Made by a program: the position numbers and the translations under genes. The notes beneath the pieces are model-generated. The model searched no databases and was not told the origin of the DNA. It worked only from the letters and a program-made list of their open reading frames with translations. DNA of 9,766 nucleotides, taken from a virus (lineage: Duplodnaviria > Heunggongvirae > Uroviricota > Caudoviricetes). Of the stretch, positions 1 through 9,766 are shown piece after piece (within the stretch, counting starts at the first letter, position 1; each line of letters opens with the position of its first letter). The stretch lies in IMG/VR virus record IMGVR_UViG_2657244961_000006; one strand, 5' to 3'.

Positions 1-1239
1 ATGGGCAGCGCAATTCATAGACTTAGCGATACTTTTTTACGAAAATTAAGCGGATCACCAGCCACAAAAAACGCCTTTTTTAATGACGGTGGCAATCTTA
101 GCGTAAGACATTCCACCAGCGGCCTTTTAACCTGGTATTTCACTTACAGGGCCGGAACTGGTAGGCAGGTATCACCTGAACGTCTGAGGCTGGGCAATTA
201 TCCCGATCTGAGCCTGAAAGCAGCCAGGGAAAAAGCGGCACAGTGTCGCGCCTGGCTGGCGGAGGGGAAAAATCCACGCCATGAGCTTAATCACACAGTG
301 CAGGAAGCGTTATCACCTGTGACGGTTAAGGAAGCGCTCACTTACTGGCTTGAGTCGTATGCGAAGGAAAAGCGCACAGACTACGAATCTCTGAAGAGCC
401 GGATCAATAAACACATAATCAGCCAGATTGGCGCTATGCCGCTGGAGAAATGCGAGCTACGGCACTGGCTGGCCTGTTTTGATCAGATGGCAAAGCTAAG
501 CCCTGTATCTGCCGGATTTTTGCTACAGGTATGCAAGCAGGCGCTTAAATACTGCCGCAAACGTCGCTACGCAATCAGCAACGTTCTTGATGATATGGTT
601 GTCGGTGATGTGGGAAAAAAAGCAGAAGTGAGCGAGCGCGTACTAACAAACAAGGAGCTTGGGGAATTACTCCGCGCCCTGGATGACAAAATATTCCCGC
701 CGTACTACAGCGCCCTGATTCGCCTCCTGATTGTTTTTGGATGCCGTACCACTGAGCTAAGACGCTCTGAGGTGCAGGAGTGGGATTTTAAGGAAATGCT
801 CTGGACAGTGCCGAAGGAGCACAGCAAAACGAAGGTCGCCATATTCAGGCCAATACCGGAAAGCATTTTGCCGTTCGTCACGCAGCTGGTGGAGCAGAAC
901 CGACGCACGGGTTTATTGCTTGGTGAACTGAAAGGGCAATCTTCGGTAGCAGAGTACGGAAGAACAGCGCACAGGCGCATTAATCAAGCCCCCTGGTCGT
1001 TGCATGACATCCGGCACACATTTACAACCATGCTGAACGATTTAGGCGTGGATCCGCATATTGTCGAGCAGCTTACAGCCCACCAGATGCCAGGGATGCA
1101 ACGAGTCTATAACCACTCCCGCTATCTTGATGCAAAACGTGATGCTCTTAACCTATGGGTAGACCGTCTCGAGCTTCTCCAGAACAATGATGAAAAAATC
1201 GTTGTTATGACCCCGCGAATTTACCACCAAAATTCTTGA
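1..1239 (+). CDS. int: Tyrosine recombinase, P4-type integrase (412 aa)
   Basis: ORF 1-1239. N-terminal arm-binding-like region typical of P4-family integrases, and C-terminal catalytic motifs: R in TTELRRSE, H-x-x-R in HDIRHTF, Y in VYNHSRY. Starts at window position 1, so the true N-terminus could lie upstream. Confidence 0.9.
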   Translation: MGSAIHRLSDTFLRKLSGSPATKNAFFNDGGNLSVRHSTSGLLTWYFTYRAGTGRQVSPERLRLGNYPDLSLKAAREKAAQCRAWLAEGKNPRHELNHTVQEALSPVTVKEALTYWLESYAKEKRTDYESLKSRINKHIISQIGAMPLEKCELRHWLACFDQMAKLSPVSAGFLLQVCKQALKYCRKRRYAISNVLDDMVVGDVGKKAEVSERVLTNKELGELLRALDDKIFPPYYSALIRLLIVFGCRTTELRRSEVQEWDFKEMLWTVPKEHSKTKVAIFRPIPESILPFVTQLVEQNRRTGLLLGELKGQSSVAEYGRTAHRRINQAPWSLHDIRHTFTTMLNDLGVDPHIVEQLTAHQMPGMQRVYNHSRYLDAKRDALNLWVDRLELLQNNDEKIVVMTPRIYHQNS

Positions 1240-1243
1240 CAAA

Positions 1244-1280
1244 TCACGGCTGTTTTTTCTTTAAGAGATTACAGCCGTGA
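1244..1280. repeat. Perfect 10-bp inverted repeat (tcacggctgt / acagccgtga) with a 17-nt loop, 5 bp after the int stop; possible int terminator or protein-binding site
   Basis: Read directly from the sequence. No T-run follows the stem, so it is not a classical intrinsic terminator. Confidence 0.4.
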
Positions 1281-1291
1281 ATAAATCGTAG

Positions 1292-1320
1292 AATATCGGA
1301 AAATATCGGAAAATATCTTC
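1292..1320. repeat. Tandem 10-bp direct repeat aatatcggaa x2 plus a partial third copy, in the AT-rich region upstream of alpA
   Basis: gaatatcggaaaatatcggaaaatatcttc read directly; lies in the 420-bp AT-rich intergenic region between int and alpA. Confidence 0.5.
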
Positions 1321-1656
1321 GCTTTACATATATCAACCATCAAAAAATTGGAATGTCTTCTTCTGAACTTTTATTCTCTGTTTCTTGATTGTTCCAACAC
1401 TTGATGGTTTATCTATTTGTTTTTAATGAGATAATTCAAGCGTAATGACAAATGACGACATTTTTTGTTGCGTCTCTGAAAAACTCGTGACACGATTTTA
1501 AACACTGACGAGCTTCTACGAACCTTAGCGAACATAGCTTTTGGCAAGGTTGTGTCTTTAATCTAAGAGGTGAAAAAGAATCTAAGTAATATCCGATCTC
1601 ATATATCTACAGCTAAGAGAAAAGTTTATATACGTAATTTTTATGTAGGTTTTTGT

Positions 1657-1866
1657 ATGCGTGAAATAAATGAAGATCGCGTAATCCGTGAGGATGAATG
1701 TCGTAAGTTAACTGGAGTGTGTCGTACTACACGCTACGAACTGGAGAAAAAAGGGAGCTTTCCGTCTCGCCGTAATCTTGGTGGGCGTTCTGTAGGTTGG
1801 CTGCTGTCCGAGGTTATGGAATGGGTTAAAAGCCGGGATCGCATTAATTCAGGTAAGGCAGCGTAA
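1657..1866 (+). CDS. alpA: AlpA-family transcriptional regulator / excisionase-like protein (69 aa)
   Basis: In-frame ATG at 1657 inside ORF 1570-1866. Product MREINEDRVIREDECRKLTGVCRTTRYELEKKGSFPSRRNLGGRSVGWLLSEVMEWV has the AlpA/MerR-like HTH pattern (helix, GGR-x-VGW, E-x-x-EW). Size matches AlpA (~70 aa); the GTG at 1570 would give an atypical 98-aa form. Confidence 0.8.
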   Translation: MREINEDRVIREDECRKLTGVCRTTRYELEKKGSFPSRRNLGGRSVGWLLSEVMEWVKSRDRINSGKAA

Positions 1867-2174
1867 AGGGGAGCATATGACATATAAAACAAAGGCGACC
1901 TGGGGCGGTCGCCAATGGATACACACTAAACTTGAACGCATCACCAACAATGCCACATTTGCGGCTGGTGGGCAATGTGATCAGTCAGATTTGGTTCGTT
2001 CCAAGGTTTGCAACGAGAGCTTTTTCCTGTGCTCTTTAAGGAATTTCTCAAGAGCAAAAGCACATGGCGCGAATCTTTCTGATTCATGCTCTATCTTTCT
2101 GTGCCGTCTTTTCCGTGCTGGTGATAATGTTTTGGTCAATTCTTTATCGGTCATTGTGCTGCCCTGTAAAGCAA

Positions 2175-2202
2175 TGCGCCGTAGTACCTCACACCACGGC
2201 GC
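2175..2202 (-). terminator. Hairpin gcgccgt-N13-acggcgc just downstream of the minus-strand RHH gene; candidate terminator
   Basis: 7-bp GC-rich stem read directly, 13 nt past the stop of the 2215-2517 gene on the minus strand, followed by a modestly T-rich stretch on that strand. Confidence 0.4.
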
Positions 2203-2214
2203 GGATGGTGATTA

Positions 2215-2517
2215 TTATGATTCTTGGGCTTTACGTCGCTGGAGTTCTTCACGAGCGACGGCTACGAGTTGCCCGATTTCCTCCGCTGCCCTGATGCCTA
2301 TTTGTTCGACCTTAGCTAGGGCATCCAGTGAAGACACAAGGGGATTTTCTCCGCTGCCTTCTGCCTTGCGGCGGGCGATCTCACCACGAACGGCTGTAAT
2401 CACGAAAGCGGCTATTGTTTCCCCTTCCGTTTTCGAATTTTCCATTTCCTCGATTACATCATGGGGGAAGCGGATATTTTTCATTTGCGATCTGCTATTG
2501 ATGTTTCCTGTTGCCAT
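2215..2517 (-). CDS. Putative ribbon-helix-helix (Arc/CopG-like) DNA-binding regulator (100 aa), divergent from the replication operon
   Basis: ORF 2215-2517 on the minus strand. N-terminal KNIRFPHDVIEEME fits an RHH beta-strand followed by helices; balanced charged composition. The overlapping plus-strand frame is Ser/Cys-rich and low-complexity, typical of antisense. The start could instead be the internal Met 11 codons downstream. Confidence 0.6.
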   Translation of the reverse strand: MATGNINSRSQMKNIRFPHDVIEEMENSKTEGETIAAFVITAVRGEIARRKAEGSGENPLVSSLDALAKVEQIGIRAAEEIGQLVAVAREELQRRKAQES

Positions 2518-2538
2518 CAGAATGTCCGGTTATTTTAA

Positions 2539-2634
2539 GGTGTGTACACATTACACCAAAAGGTGTGTTAATAAAACACTTGACGCGGTAGCACACTTAA
2601 ATTTAACCTGTACATACACCAGTGATTGTGGTGT
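2539..2634. promoter_or_regulatory. Divergent control region with repeated GGTGT/ACACC half-sites forming dyad operator candidates
   Basis: Read directly: GGTGTgtacacattACACC (2539-2557, containing the 8-bp palindrome GTGTACAC), ACACCaaaaGGTGT (2553-2566), GTGTTaataaAACAC (2565-2579), ACACCagtgattgtGGTGT (2616-2634); a TTGACG -35-like hexamer at 2580-2585. Lies between the leftward RHH gene and the rightward Icd-like/primase operon. Confidence 0.5.
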
Positions 2635-2707
2635 ATATACAGCAACGCCCCGCAGTGCTGGAACACATGCAGGGCGTCTAACCAAACCGTTAAACGAGGT
2701 AACGATT

Positions 2708-2905
2708 ATGGCTGGAACACAGCATACCCCACGACTAGCGCACACACAAACGGCCTTTGTGTGGCGTTTTCTGGCACTGAGTGCCGGAGAATCCCAAATC
2801 ATCCACGTCACCGCCTGGACGGAAAGCGAAGCGCGTAACCATTGCCCGTCCGGTTGTGTCGCTGTATTCGCCGCCCGTATTCGTCAGGAGGTGCGCCATG
2901 CCTGA
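2708..2905 (+). CDS. Small Icd-like / Ash-family-like protein (65 aa), first gene of the rightward replication operon
   Basis: ATG at 2708 with a GAGGT Shine-Dalgarno ~10 nt upstream; this is the C-terminal 65 codons of the long ORF 1877-2905. Product MAGTQHTPRLAHTQTAFVWRFLALSAGESQIIHVTAWTESEARNHCP... resembles, from memory, the small Icd-like proteins annotated in P4-type prophages. Family assignment is unverified. Confidence 0.55.
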   Translation: MAGTQHTPRLAHTQTAFVWRFLALSAGESQIIHVTAWTESEARNHCPSGCVAVFAARIRQEVRHA

Positions 2906-3218
2906 TATGTCAAATTACCAGTACCTGATTAATCCGCATTTTAACTGTGAGCATGATATTGCTAAAAAGGTTTATTCCGCTGCGGATGGGGCTACTGACA
3001 ATATATCAATGGGTATTGCGTCAATTGGTAGCCTGATGTGGCATGCGTCAGAAAATGAGGACTATGACGAAAAGGCTATGCGCATTGATATGGGTAATAT
3101 CGGTTTGTTACTGGCAATGCTTGGACATTTTGATATTTCGTTACGGTGCACCATTGAAAATGCCACAGATGCATTAAATGCCATAAAGAAAGCGAATACT
3201 GATTCAAATCGGGGATAA
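2898..3218 (+). CDS. Hypothetical protein (106 aa)
   Basis: ATG at 2898 preceded by a strong SD (caGGAGGtg, 2885-2892) and overlapping the stop of the upstream gene; the ORF-track frame 2781-3218 extends further upstream but that part overlaps the Icd-like gene. Acidic product, no recognisable motif. Confidence 0.55.
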   Translation: MPDMSNYQYLINPHFNCEHDIAKKVYSAADGATDNISMGIASIGSLMWHASENEDYDEKAMRIDMGNIGLLLAMLGHFDISLRCTIENATDALNAIKKANTDSNRG

Positions 3219-3224
3219 ATAATC

Positions 3225-3524
3225 ATGAGAACGTATTTATCTGGCTTGACTGCCAGCGGTTATGCACATCCCAAAATTATCCCCGGCGCTATTTATCGGG
3301 ATAAGAACGGCAACAGAGTAACAGTAAAATCGATAATGTTTGACCGTGTGTACTTTATTCGTGATGGCTATTCATTTCATAGCTCGCTGAACGTGGAGAT
3401 CTTTATTTGCAGATTCCGGCGGGAAATCCCGCCTTCCAGAAATAACCATGTGTCACGTGTGGATGTGGATAAAAAACTACAGGAACTGAAAAACATGATT
3501 GCCGCGTGGAGAGAGCAGAAATGA
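3225..3524 (+). CDS. Hypothetical protein (99 aa), translationally coupled to the primase
   Basis: ORF 3225-3524 with a GGGGA SD upstream; its stop (TGA 3522-3524) overlaps the primase start (ATG 3521-3523) in an ATGA arrangement. Confidence 0.55.
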   Translation: MRTYLSGLTASGYAHPKIIPGAIYRDKNGNRVTVKSIMFDRVYFIRDGYSFHSSLNVEIFICRFRREIPPSRNNHVSRVDVDKKLQELKNMIAAWREQK

Positions 3525-5338
3525 AAAAAGCGCCAAATTTAAAACACCAACCGCGTGACAAAATGACGGAAGTCATCATTTTTGCGGGTAGTGATGCGTG
3601 GGCACATGCGAAGCAGTGGCAGGAACAGGACGGGCGACTGGCTGGCGATAACGTGCCACCTGTCTGGCTTGGAGAGCAACAACTTGCCGAACTGGACAAC
3701 CTGCAAATCGTACCGGACGGACGCTATCGCGTGCGTCTCTACCAGGCGGGGTTATTGCGTCCGGGGCTTGTTAATACCATCGGGCAGAAACTGGCAGCGG
3801 CAGGTGTCAGGGATGCTGATTATTACCCTGAAGGAATGCACAGCCAGAAACGGGAGAACTGGCGCGAATATCTGGAACGTGAACGGGCAGAGCAGGCGGA
3901 AAAGAAAAAGGTAGTTGAACTGCCTGTAAAGAAAAAAGAGCGGGTAAAAGACGATAACGCTTCATCACTGGCGCTTAACCAGATGGGAGCAAGTCAACGC
4001 GGCGAAGTTCTCCTGGCACATTATGGCGGTGAACTGGCGATTCATGCTGACTCTGACACTGTTCACCATTACAACGGCGTTGTATGGGAGCCAGTACAGG
4101 ATAAAGAATTACAGCGAGCTATGGCACAGATTTTCATTGATGCGGAGATCAGCTATTCGCAGAACGCCATTAAATCGGCGGTCGATACCATGAAGTTAAG
4201 TTTGCCTGTAATGGGGAATACAGCCCGTAACCTGATTGGATTCAGTAACGGGGTATTTGATACCAGAACAGGTAATTTTCGGGAGCATAACAAAAACGAC
4301 TGGTTGTTAATTGCCAGTGAATTACCTTTCAGCCCACCAGCAGAGGGGGAAACGCTGGCAACACATGCGCCGAATTTCTGGAAGTGGTTACGCCGTTCGG
4401 TGGCTGAGAATGACCGCAAGGCGGATCGCGTACTGGCTGCATTATTCATGGTGCTGGCGAACCGGTACGACTGGCAGTTATTCATTGAGGTAACAGGTCC
4501 AGGGGGAAGTGGTAAAAGCGTGATGGCGGAGATTTGCACCATGCTGGCGGGTAAGGCCAACACAGTATCGGCAAGCATGAAGGCGCTGGAAGATGCAAGG
4601 GAACGCGCGTTAGTGGTTGGCTTTTCGCTGATTATCATGCCGGATATGACCCGCTACGCTGGTGATGGGGCAGGAATTAAGGCCATTACAGGCGGTGACA
4701 AGGTGGCAATTGACCCGAAACACAAAGCCCCCTACTCAACGCGTATTCCGGCAGTAGTGCTGGCGGTTAACAATAACGCCATGTCATTCAGTGACCGCAG
4801 CGGGGGGATCTCACGTCGTCGGGTGATATTCAATTTTTCGGAAGTTGTACCGGAGAACGAACGCGATCCAATGCTGGCGGAAAAAATAGAAGGTGAGCTG
4901 GCGGTAGTGATTCGCCATCTGCTTACACGGTTTGCTGACCAGGACGAAGCCAGACGCCTGTTATATGAGCAGCAGAAATCTGAAGAAGCACTGGCGATAA
5001 AGCGAGAGGGGGATTCGCTGGTGGACTTCTGCGGCTATCTCATGGCGTCGGTAATGTGTGATGGCCTGTTAGTGGGTAATGCTGAAATTGTGCCATTCAG
5101 CCCACGCAGGTATCTCTATCATGCCTATCTGGCTTATATGAGGGCACATGGGTTTGGTAAACCTGTAACACTGACGCGCTTCGGTAAAGATATGCCGGGG
5201 GCAATGGCGGAATATGGCAGGGAGTATATGAAACGGAAAACGAAGCACGGTTTGCGTTCAAACGTGACACTGACGGAGGAATCAGAAGACTGGATGCCAT
5301 CATGTGTATCGGTCACTAATGACGATAGCAAAAATTAA
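3521..5338 (+). CDS. P4-family phage/plasmid primase with SF3-type helicase domain (605 aa)
   Basis: ATG at 3521 (GGAGAG SD 8 nt upstream) inside ORF 3506-5338. Walker A GPGGSGKS, Walker B-like VVGFSLIIMPD, D5-N / primase C-terminal-like central region. Immediately followed by the cognate-looking iteron array. Confidence 0.85.
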   Translation: MKKAPNLKHQPRDKMTEVIIFAGSDAWAHAKQWQEQDGRLAGDNVPPVWLGEQQLAELDNLQIVPDGRYRVRLYQAGLLRPGLVNTIGQKLAAAGVRDADYYPEGMHSQKRENWREYLERERAEQAEKKKVVELPVKKKERVKDDNASSLALNQMGASQRGEVLLAHYGGELAIHADSDTVHHYNGVVWEPVQDKELQRAMAQIFIDAEISYSQNAIKSAVDTMKLSLPVMGNTARNLIGFSNGVFDTRTGNFREHNKNDWLLIASELPFSPPAEGETLATHAPNFWKWLRRSVAENDRKADRVLAALFMVLANRYDWQLFIEVTGPGGSGKSVMAEICTMLAGKANTVSASMKALEDARERALVVGFSLIIMPDMTRYAGDGAGIKAITGGDKVAIDPKHKAPYSTRIPAVVLAVNNNAMSFSDRSGGISRRRVIFNFSEVVPENERDPMLAEKIEGELAVVIRHLLTRFADQDEARRLLYEQQKSEEALAIKREGDSLVDFCGYLMASVMCDGLLVGNAEIVPFSPRRYLYHAYLAYMRAHGFGKPVTLTRFGKDMPGAMAEYGREYMKRKTKHGLRSNVTLTEESEDWMPSCVSVTNDDSKN

Positions 5339-5352
5339 ACTTATGGAATAAC

Positions 5353-5581
5353 TGTTCACCACTGTTCACCCTGTCATAAATATCTTTTATATCAGTATAT
5401 TATAGGGTGAACAGTTATTTATGAACTGTTCACCAAACTATTCACTGTTCACCTTTTTGATTGTTTATTGAGCTTCAAGGGTGAACAGTGGTGAACAGTT
5501 GGTGAATAGTTTTTGTGAAACTGTTCACCCCTTAACATTATGAATTAAAAGAGAAAATATCAAAAGGTGAACAGGTGAAGG
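5353..5581. repeat. Replication-origin-like iteron array: about 9 perfect copies of TGTTCACC / GGTGAACA in both orientations plus degenerate copies, interspersed with AT-rich DNA
   Basis: Direct copies at 5353, 5363, 5427, 5446, 5522; inverted copies at 5406, 5480, 5490, 5566; degenerate ggtgaata at 5501. The octamer TGTTCACC matches, from memory, the type I iterons bound by P4 alpha protein at ori/crr. Confidence 0.8.
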
Positions 5582-5723: not shown

Positions 5724-5804
5724 CGCCTTTTTTATGGGTCCTCCCGGTGGAGTGGTCTGCCACGGGGCGGGAGCGTCGCGGAAAAAGGCTGGTTTTTGCA
5801 TTTT
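5724..5804 (+). other. cos-like site A: ~80-bp element resembling the lambda cosQ-cosN junction, with candidate cohesive-end 12-mer GGGCGGGAGCGT (5765-5776)
   Basis: Ungapped match to the remembered lambda right-end/left-end junction (gggtcctttccggtg...acg GGGCGGCGACCT cgcggg). Here gggtcctcccggtgg...cacg GGGCGGGAGCGT cgcgg, conserving the flanks and 8 of 12 positions of the 12-mer. About 90 percent identical to element B. Confidence 0.6.
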
Positions 5805-5853
5805 CATGGCGGCGGCAGCATGTGTGATAATTTATTGATAATTAAAAGTTATT

Positions 5854-5951
5854 TCTGTTTTCACCTGTACAATATTTTTTTCTCCCTGTCATTAGACCAG
5901 TTTGCAATTAATTGAAATATATAAATAAATCTGTTTTTCACCTGCCAGGTG
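5854..5951 (+). repeat. Two direct repeats tctgtttt(t)cacctg (5854-5867, 5930-5944) plus palindrome CACCTGcCAGGTG (5939-5951) downstream of cos-like site A; candidate cosB-like terminase-binding sites
   Basis: Read directly. They loosely recall the lambda cosB R-site region (ctgtttttgtccgtgg, from memory). Confidence 0.4.
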
Positions 5952-5993: not shown

Positions 5994-6017
5994 TGCCGGA
6001 TTTTCTCCGGCTTTTTT
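5994..6017 (+). terminator. Rho-independent terminator (gccgga-ttttc-tccggc followed by TTTTTTGTG)
   Basis: 6-bp GC stem, 5-nt loop and T-run read directly. Sits between cos-like site A and the 6120 gene. Confidence 0.65.
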
Positions 6018-6119: not shown

Positions 6120-6326
6120 GTGAGTTGTATTAATGACCTGAACACGGGCGATATCAGGGGTGGTTCCGTTCATCTGGATGCGCAGACCGTTATGCGCCTT
6201 AAGCAGTACAGGATCGACCATATAAATCATCATCCTGACAAACCATTACCAGGTGTGGCGCAGATTGTCAGACATGCCGTAAACACCTGGCTTAATCAGA
6301 ATGGTTTTGCATCGGTGGGGGAATAA
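6120..6326 (+). CDS. Small putative RHH-like DNA-binding protein (68 aa, GTG start), translationally coupled to the downstream protease/capsid-like gene
   Basis: Strong SD AAGAGGAAG (6105-6113) about 6 nt before GTG 6120; stop TAA overlaps the next ATG (TAATG at 6324-6328). Product contains a beta-strand-like GGSVHLDAQTV followed by helical segments. Confidence 0.5.
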   Translation: MSCINDLNTGDIRGGSVHLDAQTVMRLKQYRIDHINHHPDKPLPGVAQIVRHAVNTWLNQNGFASVGE

Positions 6327-8239
6327 TGAATCGCTGGTACACCATTAAGGCGGCGGATGTTCGTGGAGCGGCGGATATATCTATCTATGAGGAGATTGGC
6401 GGCTTCGGTGTTACTGCAAAGCAGTTCGCGGAAGACCTGAAAGCCCTTGGCGATGTTTCACATATCAATCTGAGGATCCATTCACCAGGTGGTGATGTGT
6501 TTGAAGGCATCGCCATCTATAACCTGCTACGGAATCATCCGGCAGACATTACGGTTTATATCGATGGTGTTGCGGCTTCAATGGCTTCGGTGGTCGCAAT
6601 GGCTGGCGATCGTGTTGTGATGCCGGAAAACGCCATGATGATGATACATAAGCCGTGGGGTATCTCTGGCGGAAATGCTGGTGATATGCGTGATTATGCT
6701 GATTTGCTGGATAAGGTGGAAACCGTGTTAGTCCCTGCTTATGCCAGAAAAACGGGCAAATCAGCACAGGAAATTACCGCCATGCTGGAAGATGAAACCT
6801 GGATGGACGGGAAAGAATGCCTTAAGCACGGTTTTGCTGATGAATTGTTGCCATCCGTCAGAGCAATGGCGCGAATTGAATCGAAGCGCACAGGAGATTT
6901 TTTACATATGCCGGAAACCATTAAAGGAATGATTACACCGCCACAGGGAGCGGCAAATATTGCTGGTAATGAACAGAAACGCATCAATGGAATAAGTGAA
7001 GTGTTTAGCCTGTTCGGCAGTCGTTACGACGGGATCAAAATGGCGTGTCTGGAAGATGCATCATGTACACCGGAAATGGCCCGTGAAAAGCTGTTGAACG
7101 AGCTGGGGCGCGAGTCCACGCCATCCAATAAAAATACCCCGCCTCATATCTATGCCGGAAACGGAAACATAACAGGTGATGCAATTCGTCAGGGGCTTTA
7201 TTCCCGTCTTGGGTATGAACGCCCTGAACGAGGCAACCCTTACGCGATGATGAGCCTTTTTGAAATGGCCCAGGCATCACTGGTTGATCGTGGTATCACT
7301 GTGAGTGGTTTTATTAATCGCTCGCAGGTTGTTAATGCGGCTTTTACACACAGCAGCAGTGATTTTTCTCATATTCTGGCTGGTGGGGCTGAAAAATCTG
7401 TACTGAAAGGCTGGCAGGACAGCGGCGAAACGTTCCAGAAATGGACGCGTACCGGTTCGCTTTCAAACTTTCATGAAGCAAAGCGCGTTGGTCTGAATGG
7501 TTTTTCAAAGCTGGATAAAGTACCGGAAGGTGCGGAATATAAATACATCACCACCAGCGATAAAGGTGTACCTATTGCGCTGGCCACGTACGGGAATATT
7601 TTTTCCGTTACCCGTCAGGCCATTATCAACGATGACCTGACCCAGTTAACTACAATCCCCATGGCGATGGGACGCGCAGCCGCCAGAACAGTTGGCAATC
7701 TGGTTTATCTCCTGTTAACCAGCAACGGCAAGTTTACGGATGGTAAAGCGTTATTCCATGCCGATCATAAAAATCTTATTGCGAAGGATATGGACATGGT
7801 GGGGCTTGATGAAGCCCGTAAGCTGATGCGCCTCCAGGAGGATGCTAACGGCGACTCACTGAATATTACCCCTGCTTTTGTTCTGGTCCCTGCCGCGCTG
7901 GAATCTGCCGCGCGTCGCGCCATTCTGTCATCGTCATCAGTCTTTCCGGTTGGTGATGAGGGCACTATCAATCAGAACCCCGGCATCATTAACGTTGTGA
8001 AAGATATGGCAGAAGTAATTGTTGAGCCACGTCTTGATAAGGCCAATAGCAAGGAATGGTATGTAGCCGCAGCTAAGGGGATGGACACAATAGAAGTCGC
8101 TTATCTTGATGGTATGGATACGCCATATCTTGAGGAGCAGGTGGGCTTTACTGTTGATGGTGTCGCCTGGAAGGTGCGCATAGATGCAGGTGTCGCGGCC
8201 CTCGATTATCGTGGATTGCTGAAATCGAATGGAGCATGA
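6326..8239 (+). CDS. Fusion protein (637 aa): N-terminal ClpP-like (S14) prohead-protease domain plus large C-terminal domain, possibly an HK97-fold major capsid-like domain
   Basis: ORF 6326-8239. Residues ~20-190 show the ClpP signature (GDVFEGIAIYN, GVAASMASVVAMAGD with the candidate catalytic Ser, MMMIHKPWG with the candidate His, later acidic residues). The C-terminal ~430 aa are long enough for a scaffold plus capsid domain; the capsid assignment is from general resemblance only. Confidence 0.8.
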   Translation: MNRWYTIKAADVRGAADISIYEEIGGFGVTAKQFAEDLKALGDVSHINLRIHSPGGDVFEGIAIYNLLRNHPADITVYIDGVAASMASVVAMAGDRVVMPENAMMMIHKPWGISGGNAGDMRDYADLLDKVETVLVPAYARKTGKSAQEITAMLEDETWMDGKECLKHGFADELLPSVRAMARIESKRTGDFLHMPETIKGMITPPQGAANIAGNEQKRINGISEVFSLFGSRYDGIKMACLEDASCTPEMAREKLLNELGRESTPSNKNTPPHIYAGNGNITGDAIRQGLYSRLGYERPERGNPYAMMSLFEMAQASLVDRGITVSGFINRSQVVNAAFTHSSSDFSHILAGGAEKSVLKGWQDSGETFQKWTRTGSLSNFHEAKRVGLNGFSKLDKVPEGAEYKYITTSDKGVPIALATYGNIFSVTRQAIINDDLTQLTTIPMAMGRAAARTVGNLVYLLLTSNGKFTDGKALFHADHKNLIAKDMDMVGLDEARKLMRLQEDANGDSLNITPAFVLVPAALESAARRAILSSSSVFPVGDEGTINQNPGIINVVKDMAEVIVEPRLDKANSKEWYVAAAKGMDTIEVAYLDGMDTPYLEEQVGFTVDGVAWKVRIDAGVAALDYRGLLKSNGA

Positions 8240-8267: not shown

Positions 8268-8431
8268 GCGGCGAGCTGCCGCACCATATTCCTGAACAAC
8301 TGAGCAAACGAGAGAGGTATACCGACAAATGGCAGCGACGCACACACTCCCTCTGGCGTCACCGGGCATGGCACGCATCTGCCTTTACGGGGATTTACAA
8401 CGATTTGGCCGCCGCATCGATCTTCATGTGA
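8268..8431 (+). pseudogene. Start-less 3' remnant of a lambdoid tail-tip assembly protein K-like gene, overlapping the start of the I-like gene
   Basis: The frame is open from 8240 to the TGA at 8429-8431 with no start codon, encoding ...GELPHHIPEQLSKRERYTDKWQRRTHSLWRHRAWHASAFTGIYNDLAAASIFM. This resembles the C-terminus of lambda K as I recall it, and in lambda K overlaps I in the same way. Confidence 0.5.
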
Positions 8432-8970
8432 AAACGGGGGCCGAAGCCATCCGGGCGCTGGCCATGCAGATCCCAGCGTTTCGTCAGAAACTGAGCGATG
8501 GTTGGTATCAGGTGCGTATTGCCGGGCGTGATACAGGCGAAAACGAATTATCAGCCCGTCTTAATGAACCGCTGGAAAATGGTGCCGTGATCCACATCGT
8601 ACCGCGTCTGGCTGGTGCCAAAAGTGGCGGCGTGTTTCAGGCGGTGCTTGGTGCGGCGCTGATTGCTACGGCAATCTGGATGCCAGGAATCAGTATCGCT
8701 TTCAGTGACATTCTCTTTTCAATGGGGGCGGCGATGACACTTGGTGGTGTTGCACAGATGCTGGCACCGAAAGCCAGCACAGCAACAGCCAGCACCACGG
8801 ATAACGGTAAGCAGAACACCTATTTCTCCTCTCTGGATAACATGGTTGCCCAGGGCAATGTTATGCCTGTTCTGTACGGTGAAATGCGCGTCGGGTCGCG
8901 GGTGATTTCGCAAGAGATCAGCACAGCAGATGAAGGGGATGGCGGCCAGATTGTGGTGATTGGTCGCTGA
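8329..8970 (+). CDS. Lambdoid tail-tip assembly protein I homologue (213 aa)
   Basis: ORF 8329-8970. N-terminus MAATHTLPLASPGMARICLYGDLQRFGRRIDL... and C-terminus ...DNGKQNTYFSSLDNMVAQGNVMPVLYGEMRVGSRVISQEISTADEGDGGQIVVIGR closely match my recollection of phage lambda gpI. The central hydrophobic segment is shorter than in lambda. Confidence 0.8.
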   Translation: MAATHTLPLASPGMARICLYGDLQRFGRRIDLHVKTGAEAIRALAMQIPAFRQKLSDGWYQVRIAGRDTGENELSARLNEPLENGAVIHIVPRLAGAKSGGVFQAVLGAALIATAIWMPGISIAFSDILFSMGAAMTLGGVAQMLAPKASTATASTTDNGKQNTYFSSLDNMVAQGNVMPVLYGEMRVGSRVISQEISTADEGDGGQIVVIGR

Positions 8971-9041: not shown

Positions 9042-9124
9042 CGCCTTTTTTGGGTGGGTCCTCCCGGTGAGGTGGCCTGCCACGGGGCGGGAGCGGCGCG
9101 GAAAAAGGCTAGTTTTTGCATTTT
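9042..9124 (+). other. cos-like site B: second copy of the cosQ-cosN-like element, with candidate 12-mer GGGCGGGAGCGG (9085-9096), directly upstream of the Nu1-like gene
   Basis: About 90 percent identical to element A over ~80 bp. The downstream AT-rich DNA (ttcgtcat..., gtttttattt) resembles the lambda cosB/I-site region as remembered. The position relative to the small terminase gene mirrors lambda cos-Nu1. Confidence 0.65.
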
Positions 9125-9280
9125 TATTCGTCATCATCATCTTTCTATTATATTGAATTTTAAGTGTTTTTATTTTTGGTATGTTAATTTTGCTTATTTT
9201 GTGTTCAACATGCAGCGCGTTTTTTGACCTTTTTTAAAAGATATTTGCAAGATGCATTTTTAAAACATTCTGGAGCGGGT
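9125..9280 (+). promoter_or_regulatory. AT-rich cosB-like / promoter region upstream of terS
   Basis: A+T-rich 150 bp between cos-like site B and the terS start; contains ttcgtcat and gtttttattt motifs; no individual promoter elements called. Confidence 0.4.
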
Positions 9281-9766
9281 ATGGATCGGGAACTGAAAAA
9301 TCTGATGCTGAACATTAACCAGCTGGCGGCGATAGCGGGAATATGTCGCCAGACTGCGGCGGCAAGGCTGAAAAATATCCAGCCAGCCGGAGGACATGAC
9401 AAGCTGAAACTCTATCGGGTGACTGACATTCTGACCTGTTTTCTTGATCTTCCCGTTCCGGCATCACTGGAAGAAATGGAGCCACACGACCGTAAGGCCT
9501 GGTATCAGTCCGAACGTGAGCGCCTCAAGTTCGAACAGGAAACGGCGCAACTCATACCCGCCGATGATGTGCGAAAAGAGATGGCTATATGGGGAGAAAT
9601 CGTAAGCGAGGAACTGGAAAAACTCCCCAGTATTCTGGCACGTGATGTTGGGCTTAAACCGATGGCAGTAAACAGAGTGCAGTCAATTATTGACGATTTG
9701 TGTAATCAGATTATCAGCCGGATGGTAAAAAATGACGTAGTGAATGAGGTCGCAAAACAGGCATGA
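9281..9766 (+). CDS. terS: Nu1-like small terminase subunit / packaging-specificity protein (161 aa)
   Basis: ATG at 9281 (GGAG SD 6 nt upstream) inside ORF 9224-9766. N-terminal winged-HTH-like segment LNINQLAAIAGICRQTAAARLKN...LKLYRVTDIL parallels lambda Nu1 (VNKKQLADIFGASIRTIQNWQ...EVLYDSAAVIKWY, from memory), followed by a helical ERERLKFEQETAQL region. Confidence 0.7.
   Translation: MDRELKNLMLNINQLAAIAGICRQTAAARLKNIQPAGGHDKLKLYRVTDILTCFLDLPVPASLEEMEPHDRKAWYQSERERLKFEQETAQLIPADDVRKEMAIWGEIVSEELEKLPSILARDVGLKPMAVNRVQSIIDDLCNQIISRMVKNDVVNEVAKQA

What the first reader, a model, noticed from the sequence alone, without database searches (positions are those of the whole stretch)
6326..8239. 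Satellite-encoded ClpP-like protease fused to a large capsid-like domain
A 637-aa single polypeptide with a clear ClpP-type serine protease core followed by ~430 aa of non-protease sequence. Classical satellites remodel helper capsids with small scaffold-like proteins, and capsid-forming islands carry protease and capsid together with portal and terminase. Here a single protease-fusion gene stands alone between two cos-like sites. It could be a capsid-forming or capsid-redirecting module, a decoy, or an abortive-infection effector.
Basis: partly seen in the sequence, partly recalled or inferred. Interest (0 to 1): 0.75.

Follow-up and report, generated by a model that had tools for sequence, protein, structure and literature searches.

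The report
Satellite's own protease-scaffold-capsid polyprotein gene
A small phage-parasitic island of E. coli carries an intact, selectively maintained copy of its helper phages' all-in-one capsid gene (protease + scaffold + shell protein); such capsid genes are already known in these islands and in phages, but what they do for the island has never been shown.

Summary
Window 6326-8239 (+) is a 637-aa ORF with an N-terminal ClpP-fold protease (Ser85/His108 conserved), a short helical scaffold-like segment and a C-terminal HK97-fold major capsid protein. It scores 900 bits on NCBIfam NF045540, [quoted passage not shown] (cutoff 475).

This three-part gene is the ordinary capsid gene of many lambdoid phages (Gifsy-2, mEp460, mEp213, VT1-Sakai) and is very widespread.

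The window is a ~10.8-kb Gram-negative PICI: int, alpA, primase, iteron ori, two lambda-like cosQ-cosN sites and a TerS-like DUF1441 gene. It sits at the catalogued cspD-clpS PICI site.

Capsid homologues in such PICIs, including ones with a CLP_protease gene, are already published. The lambda-E-type homologue of EcCICFT073 was dispensable for transfer and interference.

What I add:
- The satellite-borne copies form their own clade (100% bootstrap). They are 71-79% identical across genera but only 56-63% identical to phage or helper copies.
- They are under strong purifying selection (dN/dS 0.04-0.09).
- They carry clade-specific indels.

Most likely this is a working prohead subunit that fills the island's "capsid slot". 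Its role in capsid supply, capsid size or interference is untested. Moderate interest; a new member of a known kind.

The parts
6326..8239 (+). ClpP-like prohead protease / scaffold / HK97-fold major capsid protein fusion gene (637 aa); the finding itself
   Evidence: ORF. Pfam CLP_protease plus Phage_capsid_4. phrog_133 at E 3e-284. NCBIfam NF045540 at 900.6 bits against a cutoff of 475. AF2 model pLDDT 88.5.
6326..6871 (+). Protease domain (about residues 1-182), with Ser85, His108 and Asp156-Glu157
6872..7165 (+). Linker plus helical scaffold-like segment (about residues 183-280). It is about 30-35 aa shorter than in phage homologues. It contains an 87-nt patch (7078-7164) that is 94-95% identical to mEp460-type phages, and the probable maturation-cleavage linker (residues 271-279).
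   Evidence: AF2 helices 187-261 and low pLDDT at 204-211 and 271-279. Deletion relative to phages. Conserved nucleotide patch. The cleavage site is inferred.
7166..8236 (+). HK97-fold major capsid domain (about residues 281-637), with a satellite-clade-specific 7-14 aa insertion at about residues 538-552
   Evidence: Pfam Phage_capsid_4 335-634, E 3e-54. C-terminal model pLDDT 90.1. Foldseek hits to HK97, SaPI1/80alpha, D3, T5 and JBD30 capsids and to encapsulins, probability 1.00. Insertion.
6120..6326 (+). Conserved 68-aa ORF whose stop overlaps the fusion gene's start (ATGA). A small ORF sits in the same position in every satellite copy examined. Function unknown; a ribbon-helix-helix-like pattern is my inference.
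   Evidence: ORF. phrog_4934, function unknown. Conserved upstream ORFs in L004, L010, L011 and L013, and a weakly similar one in the E-type cassette of EcCIIHE3034. No Pfam or PDB match.
5728..5807 (+). cos copy 1: cosQ-like GGGTCCTCCCGGTG (5736-5749) and cosN GGGCGGGAGCGT (5765-5776). The downstream (cosB) side differs from the phage sequence.
   Evidence: Repeat family D1. Alignment with the lambda cos junction and with mEp460.
9048..9127 (+). cos copy 2: cosQ-like sequence plus cosN GGGCGGGAGCGG (9085-9096), followed by an mEp460-like cosB region that runs up to the TerS-like gene
   Evidence: 80-85% nucleotide match to the region just upstream of terS in mEp460, mEp213, mEp043 and Stx phages.
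9281..9766 (+). DUF1441 terminase-small-subunit homologue (161 aa), 61% identical over its full length to mEp460 TerS
   Evidence: Pfam DUF1441 E 3e-35. phrog_141, terminase small subunit. Alignment A4. RefSeq annotation.
8270..8970 (+). Lambda-K-like remnant (8270-8431, pseudogene) plus an intact lambda-I-like tail assembly gene (8368-8970). This is a variable, more recently captured insert.
   Evidence: Pfam Lambda_tail_I. RefSeq annotation. Absent from otherwise similar islands L004 and L005. 86-88% nucleotide identity to lambdoid phages.
1..5570 (+). PICI backbone: integrase (1-1239), alpA (about 1657-1866), YlcI/YnfO-like gene (2215-2517, minus strand), icd-like gene, DUF4222 gene (3225-3524), D5-type primase (3506-5338), and an iteron origin (GGTGAACAGT repeats, 5337-5570)

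Best explanation
The ORF is the satellite's resident copy of the helper family's single-gene capsid module: a ClpP-type maturation protease, a scaffold segment and an HK97-fold shell protein in one polypeptide. It fills the 'capsid slot' of the late module of an enterobacterial PICI.

Shown:
- It is intact, with the protease nucleophile and His conserved.
- It belongs to a lineage found only in satellites so far, and that lineage is under strong purifying selection.
- It sits in a cassette of small ORF, capsid gene, cos and TerS-like gene. Its cos sites and TerS-like gene match mEp460/Gifsy-2-type lambdoid phages.

Inferred mechanism:
- When such a helper is induced, the island excises, replicates from its iteron origin and expresses the polyprotein.
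- The polyprotein assembles on the helper's portal into proheads, either alone or mixed with helper subunits.
- Its ClpP domain removes protease and scaffold from inside the shell.
- The resulting shells are filled by the helper's large terminase, directed to the island's cos by the island's TerS-like protein, and completed with helper decoration protein, connectors and tails.

The island would therefore supply its own shell protein and steal everything else. Whether these shells are full-size (four 10.8-kb copies, about 43 kb) or small is not known.
For: Identity of the protein.

The same architecture is the sole capsid gene, directly after portal, in mEp460, mEp213 and an Stx2d phage. These share 56-61% aa identity with the window protein over its full length.

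Satellite context in every close relative examined:
- E. coli islands at cspD-clpS, tRNA-Ile and abgR-smrA;
- a Serratia island next to fis;
- helper-embedded PICIs in Pectobacterium and in a metagenome;
- a 10,790-bp circular record that is the whole island.

Selection: dN/dS is 0.04-0.09 at dS 0.05-0.25 among E. coli copies.

Separate lineage:
- Satellite copies are 71-79% identical across genera, but only 57-63% identical to their own embedded helpers and 56-61% to E. coli phages.
- In a neighbour-joining tree the satellite clade has 100% bootstrap support, the phage/helper clade 100%, and their sister relationship 96%.
- Clade-specific indels are present.

Traces of contact with the helper family:
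- cosN identical to mEp460;
- TerS-like protein 61% identical to mEp460 TerS;
- an 87-nt gene-conversion patch;
- the K'-I segment at 86-88% nucleotide identity.

In helper-embedded relatives the satellite copy is co-oriented with the helper late operon, whose own fusion gene the satellite has interrupted.
Against: - There is no experiment on this gene.
- The nearest tested analogue is the lambda-E-type capsid homologue c1499 of EcCICFT073. It could be deleted without loss of transfer or of interference, and all packaged DNA was phage-sized (PMC6092414).
- The island has no portal, large terminase, decoration or connector genes. Any shell it makes must therefore be compatible with helper parts, even though its shell protein is only about 60% identical to helper shell proteins.
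- 4 x 10.79 kb = 43.2 kb fits a full-size mEp460-type head (44.5 kb genome). The island therefore does not need a capsid of its own to be packaged.
- Purifying selection shows the gene has a function but not which one.
Confidence: 0.5

Rival explanations
1. Capsid-size redirection. The satellite polyprotein, alone or mixed with helper subunits, forces small (T=3 or T=4) capsids that hold one ~10.8-kb island copy and exclude the 43-45-kb helper genome. This would parallel the Ccm capsid homologue of SaPIbov5.
For: - Satellite-clade-specific changes lie where size could be set: a 30-35 aa shorter linker and first scaffold helix, and a 7-14 aa insertion in the capsid domain.
- Island length is tightly conserved at 10.1-10.8 kb in distant relatives.
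- PmCI172, another Gram-negative PICI with a capsid homologue, makes small capsids (PMC6092414).
- The satellite clade behaves as a self-consistent lineage and does not track each helper's sequence.
Against: - EcCICFT073, the model E. coli PICI, packages only phage-sized DNA, and its capsid homologue is dispensable.
- A short linker is not specific to satellites. P0135 (651 aa, a single matched stretch) sits in a normal TerL-portal-fusion-decoration phage module.
- Four island copies fit a full-size head.
- No size prediction can be made from sequence.
Confidence: 0.2
2. Interference subunit or decoy. The diverged shell protein co-assembles with helper subunits, or its protease acts on helper proheads. 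This poisons helper capsid assembly or maturation to the island's benefit.
For: - About 60% identity to helper proteins, with conserved interface-rich core motifs, could allow mixed and faulty assembly.
- PICIs generally interfere with their helpers (PMC6092414, PMC6739421).
- Purifying selection is compatible with this role.
Against: - The island needs working capsids too.
- In EcCICFT073 interference maps to Rpp and not to the capsid homologue.
- There is no match to any PADLOC defence model.
- Full conservation of the protease nucleophile and His and of the whole HK97 domain is what a working shell protein would show. A decoy would not need all of it.
Confidence: 0.15
3. Functionless passenger. 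The gene is a captured helper late gene that is simply carried along, or serves only as homology for recombination and as an attachment site.
For: - PICI late zones do capture helper late genes (PMC10111431). The K'-I segment next door is such a recent, variable capture.
- The E-type capsid homologue of EcCICFT073 has no laboratory phenotype.
- The gene carries the attB core that helper-embedded PICIs use.
Against: - dN/dS is 0.04-0.09 and the ORF is intact in all copies examined.
- The satellite-only clade spans several genera and is as deep as the phage clade. It is only 45-75% identical at nucleotide level to phage genes. This is an old resident, not a recent capture.
- An upstream ORF is conserved with it and overlaps its start.
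Confidence: 0.1

Closest known systems
[quoted passage not shown]
   Same: Same architecture and family: ClpP protease, scaffold and HK97 capsid protein in one polypeptide. 56-61% aa identity over the full length. Same Ser/His. Same accompanying TerS family (DUF1441) and the same cosN.
   Different: The phage genes follow terL, a small head-tail adaptor gene and portal, and precede the decoration and tail genes. This copy sits in a ~10.8-kb island with none of those. It belongs to a separate satellite-only clade, lacks about 30-35 aa of linker and first scaffold helix, and has a 7-14 aa insertion in the capsid domain.
Capsid homologue c1499 (lambda-E type) and decoration homologue c1500 of PICI EcCICFT073; the same cassette is present in EcCIIHE3034
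   Same: Same kind of element and the same slot in the late module: after the ori and cos1, preceded by a small ORF, and followed by a cos and a TerS- or Rpp-type gene. EcCIIHE3034 shares this island's attachment site, a near-identical integrase and an identical AlpA.
   Different: A different capsid family (lambda E, with no fused protease or scaffold) matched to lambda/phi80-type helpers. c1499 was tested and found dispensable for transfer and interference. The fusion-type gene has not been tested.
PICIs with a CLP_protease late gene, and helper-embedded PICIs at site C:CLP_protease:110 (Mageeney et al. 2023, PMC10111431)
   Same: The tRNA-Ile islands L003 and L005 carry this same gene at 97-99.9% nucleotide identity. 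Relatives L010 and L013 are helper-embedded PICIs inserted at the His108 codon of the helper's fusion gene, exactly as that paper describes.
   Different: This island is chromosomal (cspD-clpS) and has alpA. In the passages I read, that paper treats the gene as a CLP_protease late gene and does not analyse its capsid domain, its phylogeny or its selection.
Capsid-forming PICIs (cf-PICIs, e.g. EcCIEDL933)
   Same: A satellite that encodes its own capsid protein, maturation protease and a small terminase subunit. The capsid lineage is separate from phage homologues.
   Different: cf-PICIs also encode portal, head-tail connectors, HNH and large terminase, and they steal only tails. None of those genes is present here.
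Ccm of SaPIbov5 (satellite-encoded HK97-type capsid homologue that redirects capsid size) and the capsid homologue of PmCI172
   Same: A satellite-borne homologue of the helper's major capsid protein in a cos-packaged island.
   Different: No sequence relationship was tested. Small capsids are demonstrated for those systems and not for this one. Those proteins are not described as carrying a fused protease.

Membership tests
ClpP-like prohead protease/major capsid protein fusion family (NCBIfam NF045540; Gifsy-2-type tripartite capsid protein) | Whole-protein HMM score above the curated cutoff | tested here: met
   900.6 bits against a cutoff of 475. phrog_133 at E 3e-284.
ClpP-like prohead protease/major capsid protein fusion family (NCBIfam NF045540; Gifsy-2-type tripartite capsid protein) | N-terminal ClpP-fold serine protease with catalytic Ser and His | tested here: met
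ClpP-like prohead protease/major capsid protein fusion family (NCBIfam NF045540; Gifsy-2-type tripartite capsid protein) | C-terminal HK97-fold major capsid domain | tested here: met
   Phage_capsid_4 E 3e-54. Model of residues 201-637 has pLDDT 90.1. Foldseek hits to HK97-fold capsids and encapsulins, probability 1.00.
ClpP-like prohead protease/major capsid protein fusion family (NCBIfam NF045540; Gifsy-2-type tripartite capsid protein) | Central scaffold region between protease and capsid domain | tested here: inconclusive
   A helical segment at about residues 187-261 is present, bounded by two low-confidence linkers. It is 30-35 aa shorter than in phage members. Scaffold function cannot be tested here.
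ClpP-like prohead protease/major capsid protein fusion family (NCBIfam NF045540; Gifsy-2-type tripartite capsid protein) | Self-processing and assembly into capsids | not testable with these tools
   Needs expression, EM and mass spectrometry.
Gram-negative PICI (EcCICFT073 type) | int at the left end, alpA, primase/replication gene followed by an iteron origin, mostly unidirectional genes, size about 10-12 kb | tested here: met
   The whole island is 10,790 bp in L001.
Gram-negative PICI (EcCICFT073 type) | Specific chromosomal attachment site shared with catalogued PICIs | tested here: met
   The island lies between cspD/yljB and clpS in strain PEC122. This is the site of EcCIIHE3034 and EcCI18098 in Table S1 of PMC6092414.
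Gram-negative PICI (EcCICFT073 type) | Helper-type cos site(s) with an adjacent TerS- or Rpp-type gene | tested here: met
   Two cosQ-cosN copies and a DUF1441 TerS homologue. The island protein is a TerS homologue. It gave no sequence match to any solved structure, so I could not link it to Rpp.
Gram-negative PICI (EcCICFT073 type) | Helper-induced excision, replication and high-frequency transfer | not testable with these tools
   The only indirect hint is that the island was assembled as a separate circular 10,790-bp replicon in one strain.
Capsid-forming PICI (cf-PICI) | Encodes major capsid protein and head maturation protease | tested here: met
   Both are present, fused in one gene.
Capsid-forming PICI (cf-PICI) | Encodes portal, head-tail connectors, HNH and large terminase, so that only tails are stolen | tested here: not met
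   No such genes are found in the window or in the full 10.8-kb island.
Satellite capsid-size redirection by a capsid homologue (SaPIbov5 Ccm type) | Satellite-encoded homologue of the helper's major capsid protein | tested here: met
Satellite capsid-size redirection by a capsid homologue (SaPIbov5 Ccm type) | Production of satellite-sized small capsids that depends on the gene | not testable with these tools
   Needs EM and analysis of packaged DNA. The E. coli model PICI shows only phage-sized DNA.

The most novel reading that the evidence does not exclude
These islands are an intermediate class of satellite between classical PICIs, which steal the whole virion, and cf-PICIs, which steal only tails. 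With a single polyprotein gene they build their own, possibly satellite-sized, capsid shell. They take portal, large terminase, decoration protein, connectors and tails from the helper, and they redirect packaging with their own TerS-like protein and cos. The old satellite-only clade with its specific indels would then be a shell protein adapted to the satellite.
Probability: 0.25. Interest if true: 0.7.

Novelty: new member of a known kind. Interest (0 to 1): 0.4.

Why it matters
Capsid homologues are the commonest late gene in Gram-negative PICIs (21 of 29 reference islands). The only one tested had no phenotype, so their purpose is an open question.

The fusion-type copy is a clean test case. 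One gene brings protease, scaffold and shell. It is clearly under selection in a satellite-only lineage. Natural helper-embedded relatives interrupt the helper's own copy of the same gene.

If it builds or reshapes capsids, it would define a minimal one-gene route to satellite-made shells. It would also fill the gap between classical and capsid-forming PICIs. If it does nothing measurable, the strong purifying selection itself would need an explanation.

Tried and rejected
- Fold searches with the full-length model listed only ClpP and crotonase-fold hits for the N-terminal domain. I had to model residues 201-637 separately to test the capsid fold.
- Sequence search of the C-terminal half against the PDB gave only marginal capsid hits: E 0.0056 to a major capsid protein and 0.043 to Mu GpT-like capsid proteins.
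- Idea that a short linker marks satellite copies: rejected. P0135 has a short linker but sits in a normal phage head module. P0124, P0127 and probably P0149 are satellite- or plasmid-like standalone copies from other lineages. The contig for P0121 was too short to be informative.
- Idea that the DUF1441 protein is an Rpp protein: it gave no sequence match to any solved structure. It is 61% identical to a phage TerS over its full length, so I call it a TerS homologue.
- Abortive-infection or defence reading: no PADLOC hit for the fusion protein or its neighbours.
- Rfam found no known RNA family in the window.
- The small upstream ORF has no Pfam, NCBIfam or PDB match.
- The promoter scan found no convincing sigma-70 promoter for the late module: 2 sites, fewer than in shuffled sequence, and both on the minus strand.
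- The Gifsy-2 capsid paper (Effantin et al. 2010) is not held in the library. It is cited from a reference list and from my own knowledge.
- I did not measure co-occurrence of the island with mEp460-type prophages across the 5,426 genomes, because the tool output lists too few rows.
Full report
**1. The observation**

Window 6326-8239 (+) is an uninterrupted 637-codon ORF. Pfam places CLP_protease on residues 31-175 (E 2e-35) and Phage_capsid_4 on residues 335-634 (E 3e-54). PHROGs gives phrog_133 'head maturation protease' at E 3e-284 and phrog_4523 'major head and protease protein'. NCBIfam NF045540, 'ClpP-like prohead protease/major capsid protein fusion protein', scores 900.6 bits against a cutoff of 475. 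RefSeq gives the same gene that name in other genomes.

The N-terminal domain matches solved ClpP chains by sequence (E 1.6e-17). Ser85 of GVAASMAS and His108 of MIHKPW align with the ClpP nucleophile and His. The ClpP Asp position aligns with Glu157 of an invariant Asp156-Glu157 pair.

An AlphaFold2 model from a 99-sequence alignment has mean pLDDT 88.5. It shows the following:
- a ClpP-like domain;
- helices at 187-261;
- two low-confidence linkers, at 204-211 and 271-279;
- a mixed alpha/beta C-terminal domain.

**2. The surroundings**

The window is most of a Gram-negative PICI. In order it contains:
- integrase (1-1239);
- AlpA;
- a YlcI/YnfO-like gene on the minus strand;
- icd-like and DUF4222 genes;
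- a D5-type primase (3506-5338);
- an iteron origin built from GGTGAACAGT repeats (5337-5570).

The same island lies between cspD/yljB and clpS in E. coli PEC122. In another strain it was assembled as a 10,790-bp circular 'plasmid'. The cspD-clpS site is the catalogued site of PICIs EcCIIHE3034 (10.5 kb) and EcCI18098 (10.8 kb) (Fillol-Salom et al. 2018, Table S1).

The 80-nt direct repeat at 5728-5807 and 9048-9127 aligns base for base with the lambda cos junction:
- lambda: GGGTCC..CCGGTG...ACG|GGGCGGCGACCT|CGCGG
- copy 1: GGGTCCTCCCGGTG...ACG|GGGCGGGAGCGT|CGCGG
- copy 2: the same, with cosN GGGCGGGAGCGG

Copy 2 has a cosN identical to the sequence upstream of terS in phage mEp460. It stays similar to mEp460 on the cosB side, whereas copy 1 diverges there. 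Copy 2 is followed by a DUF1441 protein that is 61% identical over its full length to mEp460 TerS.

Between the two cos sites lie four features:
- a 68-aa ORF whose stop overlaps the fusion gene's ATG;
- the fusion gene itself;
- a remnant of a lambda-K-like gene;
- an intact lambda-I-like gene.

The K'-I piece is missing from otherwise similar islands. It is 86-88% identical in nucleotides to lambdoid phages, so it is a recent capture.

**3. What the fusion is**

The same three-part gene, at 56-61% aa identity over the full length, is the only capsid gene of phages mEp460, mEp213, mEp043, cdtI, VT1-Sakai and several Stx2 phages. There it sits between the portal and decoration genes and downstream of a DUF1441 TerS and TerL. 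The architecture is very common: 7,286 representative clusters at E<=1e-30, most of them 640-750 aa long. Its type case is the Gifsy-2 'tripartite capsid gene' (Effantin et al. 2010). I saw that paper only as a reference, the paper itself is not held, and its content here is from my own knowledge.

A satellite that carries the capsid gene of such a helper therefore carries protease and scaffold automatically. The fusion is not a satellite invention.

EcCIIHE3034 supports this reading. It has the same attachment site, a near-identical integrase and an identical AlpA. In the same slot, however, it carries a lambda-E-type capsid gene, a decoration gene and a different TerS, again preceded by a 68-aa ORF that overlaps the capsid gene's start. 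The late module is thus an exchangeable cassette matched to the helper family.

**4. What is known**

- EcCICFT073 encodes a capsid homologue (c1499) and a decoration homologue (c1500). Deleting either one changed neither interference nor transfer, and all packaged DNA was phage-sized.
- PmCI172, which also has a capsid homologue, makes small capsids.
- Mageeney et al. [quoted passage not shown] They describe tRNA-Ile2 PICIs bearing a CLP_protease gene, and helper-embedded PICIs that insert at 'C:CLP_protease:110'.
- cf-PICIs encode a complete head and packaging set and steal only tails.

The existence of this gene in satellites is therefore already on record. Its function is not.

**5. What I can add**

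(a) *Context.* In 195 of 5,426 complete E. coli genomes, a match covers at least 80% of this gene at megablast level. Every copy I opened lies in a PICI, at three different attachment sites and with different integrases. Homologues of 70-79% identity and 633-646 aa occur in Klebsiella, Pectobacterium, Dickeya, Serratia, Yersinia, Citrobacter, Enterobacter and others. The three whose context I examined are all PICIs:
- The Serratia island lies next to fis.
- The Pectobacterium copy and a metagenome copy are helper-embedded PICIs of 10.8 and 10.1 kb. Each is inserted at the His108 codon of the helper's own fusion gene (att core ATGATGATCCAT) and is co-oriented with the helper late operon.

(b) *A separate lineage.* Satellite copies are 71-79% identical to each other across genera. 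They are only 57-63% identical to their own helpers and 56-61% identical to E. coli phages, while phage and helper copies are 69-78% identical among themselves. A neighbour-joining tree with 200 bootstraps gives 100% support to the satellite clade, 100% to the phage/helper clade, and 96% to their being sisters. At a 50% clustering level the whole satellite clade collapses into one representative.

(c) *Selection.* dN/dS among E. coli copies is 0.04-0.09 at dS 0.05-0.25. That is at least as constrained as the phage genes.

(d) *Clade-specific features.* Relative to phage copies, the satellite copies:
- lack 30-35 aa, namely the Pro-rich linker and the first half of the helix DExxIRAQVxAEQ;
- have a 7-14 aa insertion at residues 538-552, in a lower-confidence hairpin of the capsid domain;
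- carry many fixed substitutions.

(e) *Contact with mEp460-type phages.* There are four traces:
- an identical cosN;
- the TerS homologue;
- the K'-I capture;
- an 87-nt patch (window 7078-7164) that is 94-95% identical to mEp460-type genes, while the rest of the gene is 45-75% identical. This looks like gene conversion.

(f) *Independent lineages.* Other lineages also show a standalone fusion gene next to replication or plasmid genes and preceded by a small overlapping ORF (P0124 and P0127). P0135 has a short linker but lies in an ordinary phage, so linker length alone does not mark satellites.

**6. Mechanism**

*Shown:* the gene is an intact, selected member of the protease-scaffold-capsid family. 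It resides in a satellite-only lineage, within a cos/TerS cassette matched to mEp460/Gifsy-2-type helpers.

*Inferred (confidence about 0.5):* it works as a prohead subunit for the island. It would assemble on the helper portal, process itself with its ClpP domain, and give shells that the helper's TerL fills under the direction of the island's TerS-like protein and cos.

Full-size shells would take four island copies: 43.2 kb against a 44.5-kb mEp460 genome. That is how EcCICFT073 is packaged. Small shells remain possible (about 0.2). Interference by mixed assembly (about 0.15) and a functionless passenger (about 0.1) are the remaining readings. The passenger reading fits the selection data and the depth of the clade poorly.

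**7. Verdict**

This is a new member of a known kind (PICI capsid-slot gene; Gifsy-2-type tripartite capsid protein). The open and testable question of function is what makes it moderately interesting.

Noticed in passing
window 7078-7164 (nt 753-839 of the fusion gene): An 87-nt patch is 94-95% identical to mEp460-type phage capsid genes. It is found in about 1,400 further E. coli genomes. The rest of the gene is only 45-75% identical to those phages. It looks like a gene-conversion tract and lies just before the probable scaffold/capsid cleavage linker.
   Followed up: partly
window 6635-6649; L010 2537 and 13306; L013 3587 and 13666: The His108 codon region (ATGATGATGATACAT) is one mismatch from the 12-nt core ATGATGATCCAT. 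In relatives, helper-embedded PICIs split the helper's fusion gene at that core. Those PICIs' own copies differ there (ATGATGATTCAC, CTCATGATTCAC), which might prevent self-integration (compare).
   Followed up: partly
window 6120-6326; L024 7403-7609; L010 9810-10004; L011 and L013 9825-10004; L017 1835-2047; L018 4869-5135: A 59-88-aa ORF overlaps the start of the capsid gene in every satellite examined, including the lambda-E-type cassette of EcCIIHE3034. It shows a shared 'V-H/Y-I ... P-x-P ... G-x-I/L-V-R' pattern that resembles a ribbon-helix-helix protein. There is no family or PDB match.
   Followed up: partly
L024 (E. coli IHE3034, 920272-930825) compared with the window: The attachment site is the same, the integrase near-identical and AlpA identical, but the late module differs: E-type capsid, decoration protein and a different TerS in place of the fusion and the DUF1441 gene. 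PICI late modules therefore appear to be swapped as cassettes matched to the helper family.
   Followed up: partly
L001 (NZ_CP148328.1, whole record): The complete island is deposited as a circular 10,790-bp 'plasmid', pZ1323HEC0475-3. This suggests it was excised and abundant in that culture.
   Followed up: no
window 5777-5880 compared with 9097-9230: The two cos copies share cosQ and cosN but differ downstream. Copy 2 keeps an mEp460-like cosB, while copy 1 has unrelated sequence. This recalls cos1 and cos2 of EcCICFT073, where only one copy is used by the redirected terminase.
   Followed up: partly
window 8270-8970: A truncated lambda-K-like gene and an intact lambda-I-like tail assembly gene are 86-88% identical in nucleotides to lambdoid phages. 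They are present in some copies of the island and absent from others. A tail-tip assembly gene in an island without tail genes is unexplained.
   Followed up: partly
L011 12059-12283; L013 12094-12318: In the Serratia and metagenome relatives the DUF1441 gene is cut down to 74 aa, roughly the N-terminal helix-turn-helix part. The TerS-like function may therefore differ between islands.
   Followed up: no
L017 (metagenome contig, 10,585 bp): A fusion gene 51% identical to this one sits with an integrase, a small overlapping ORF, a tape-measure-like gene, IncFII RepA, a ParA-like gene and ProQ. This may be a plasmid-like satellite carrying the same module.
   Followed up: no
window 5995-6011: A terminator-like hairpin (GCCGGATTTTCTCCGGC followed by a T run) lies between cos copy 1 and the small ORF. 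No sigma-70-like promoter was found for the late module, so how it is transcribed is unclear.
   Followed up: no
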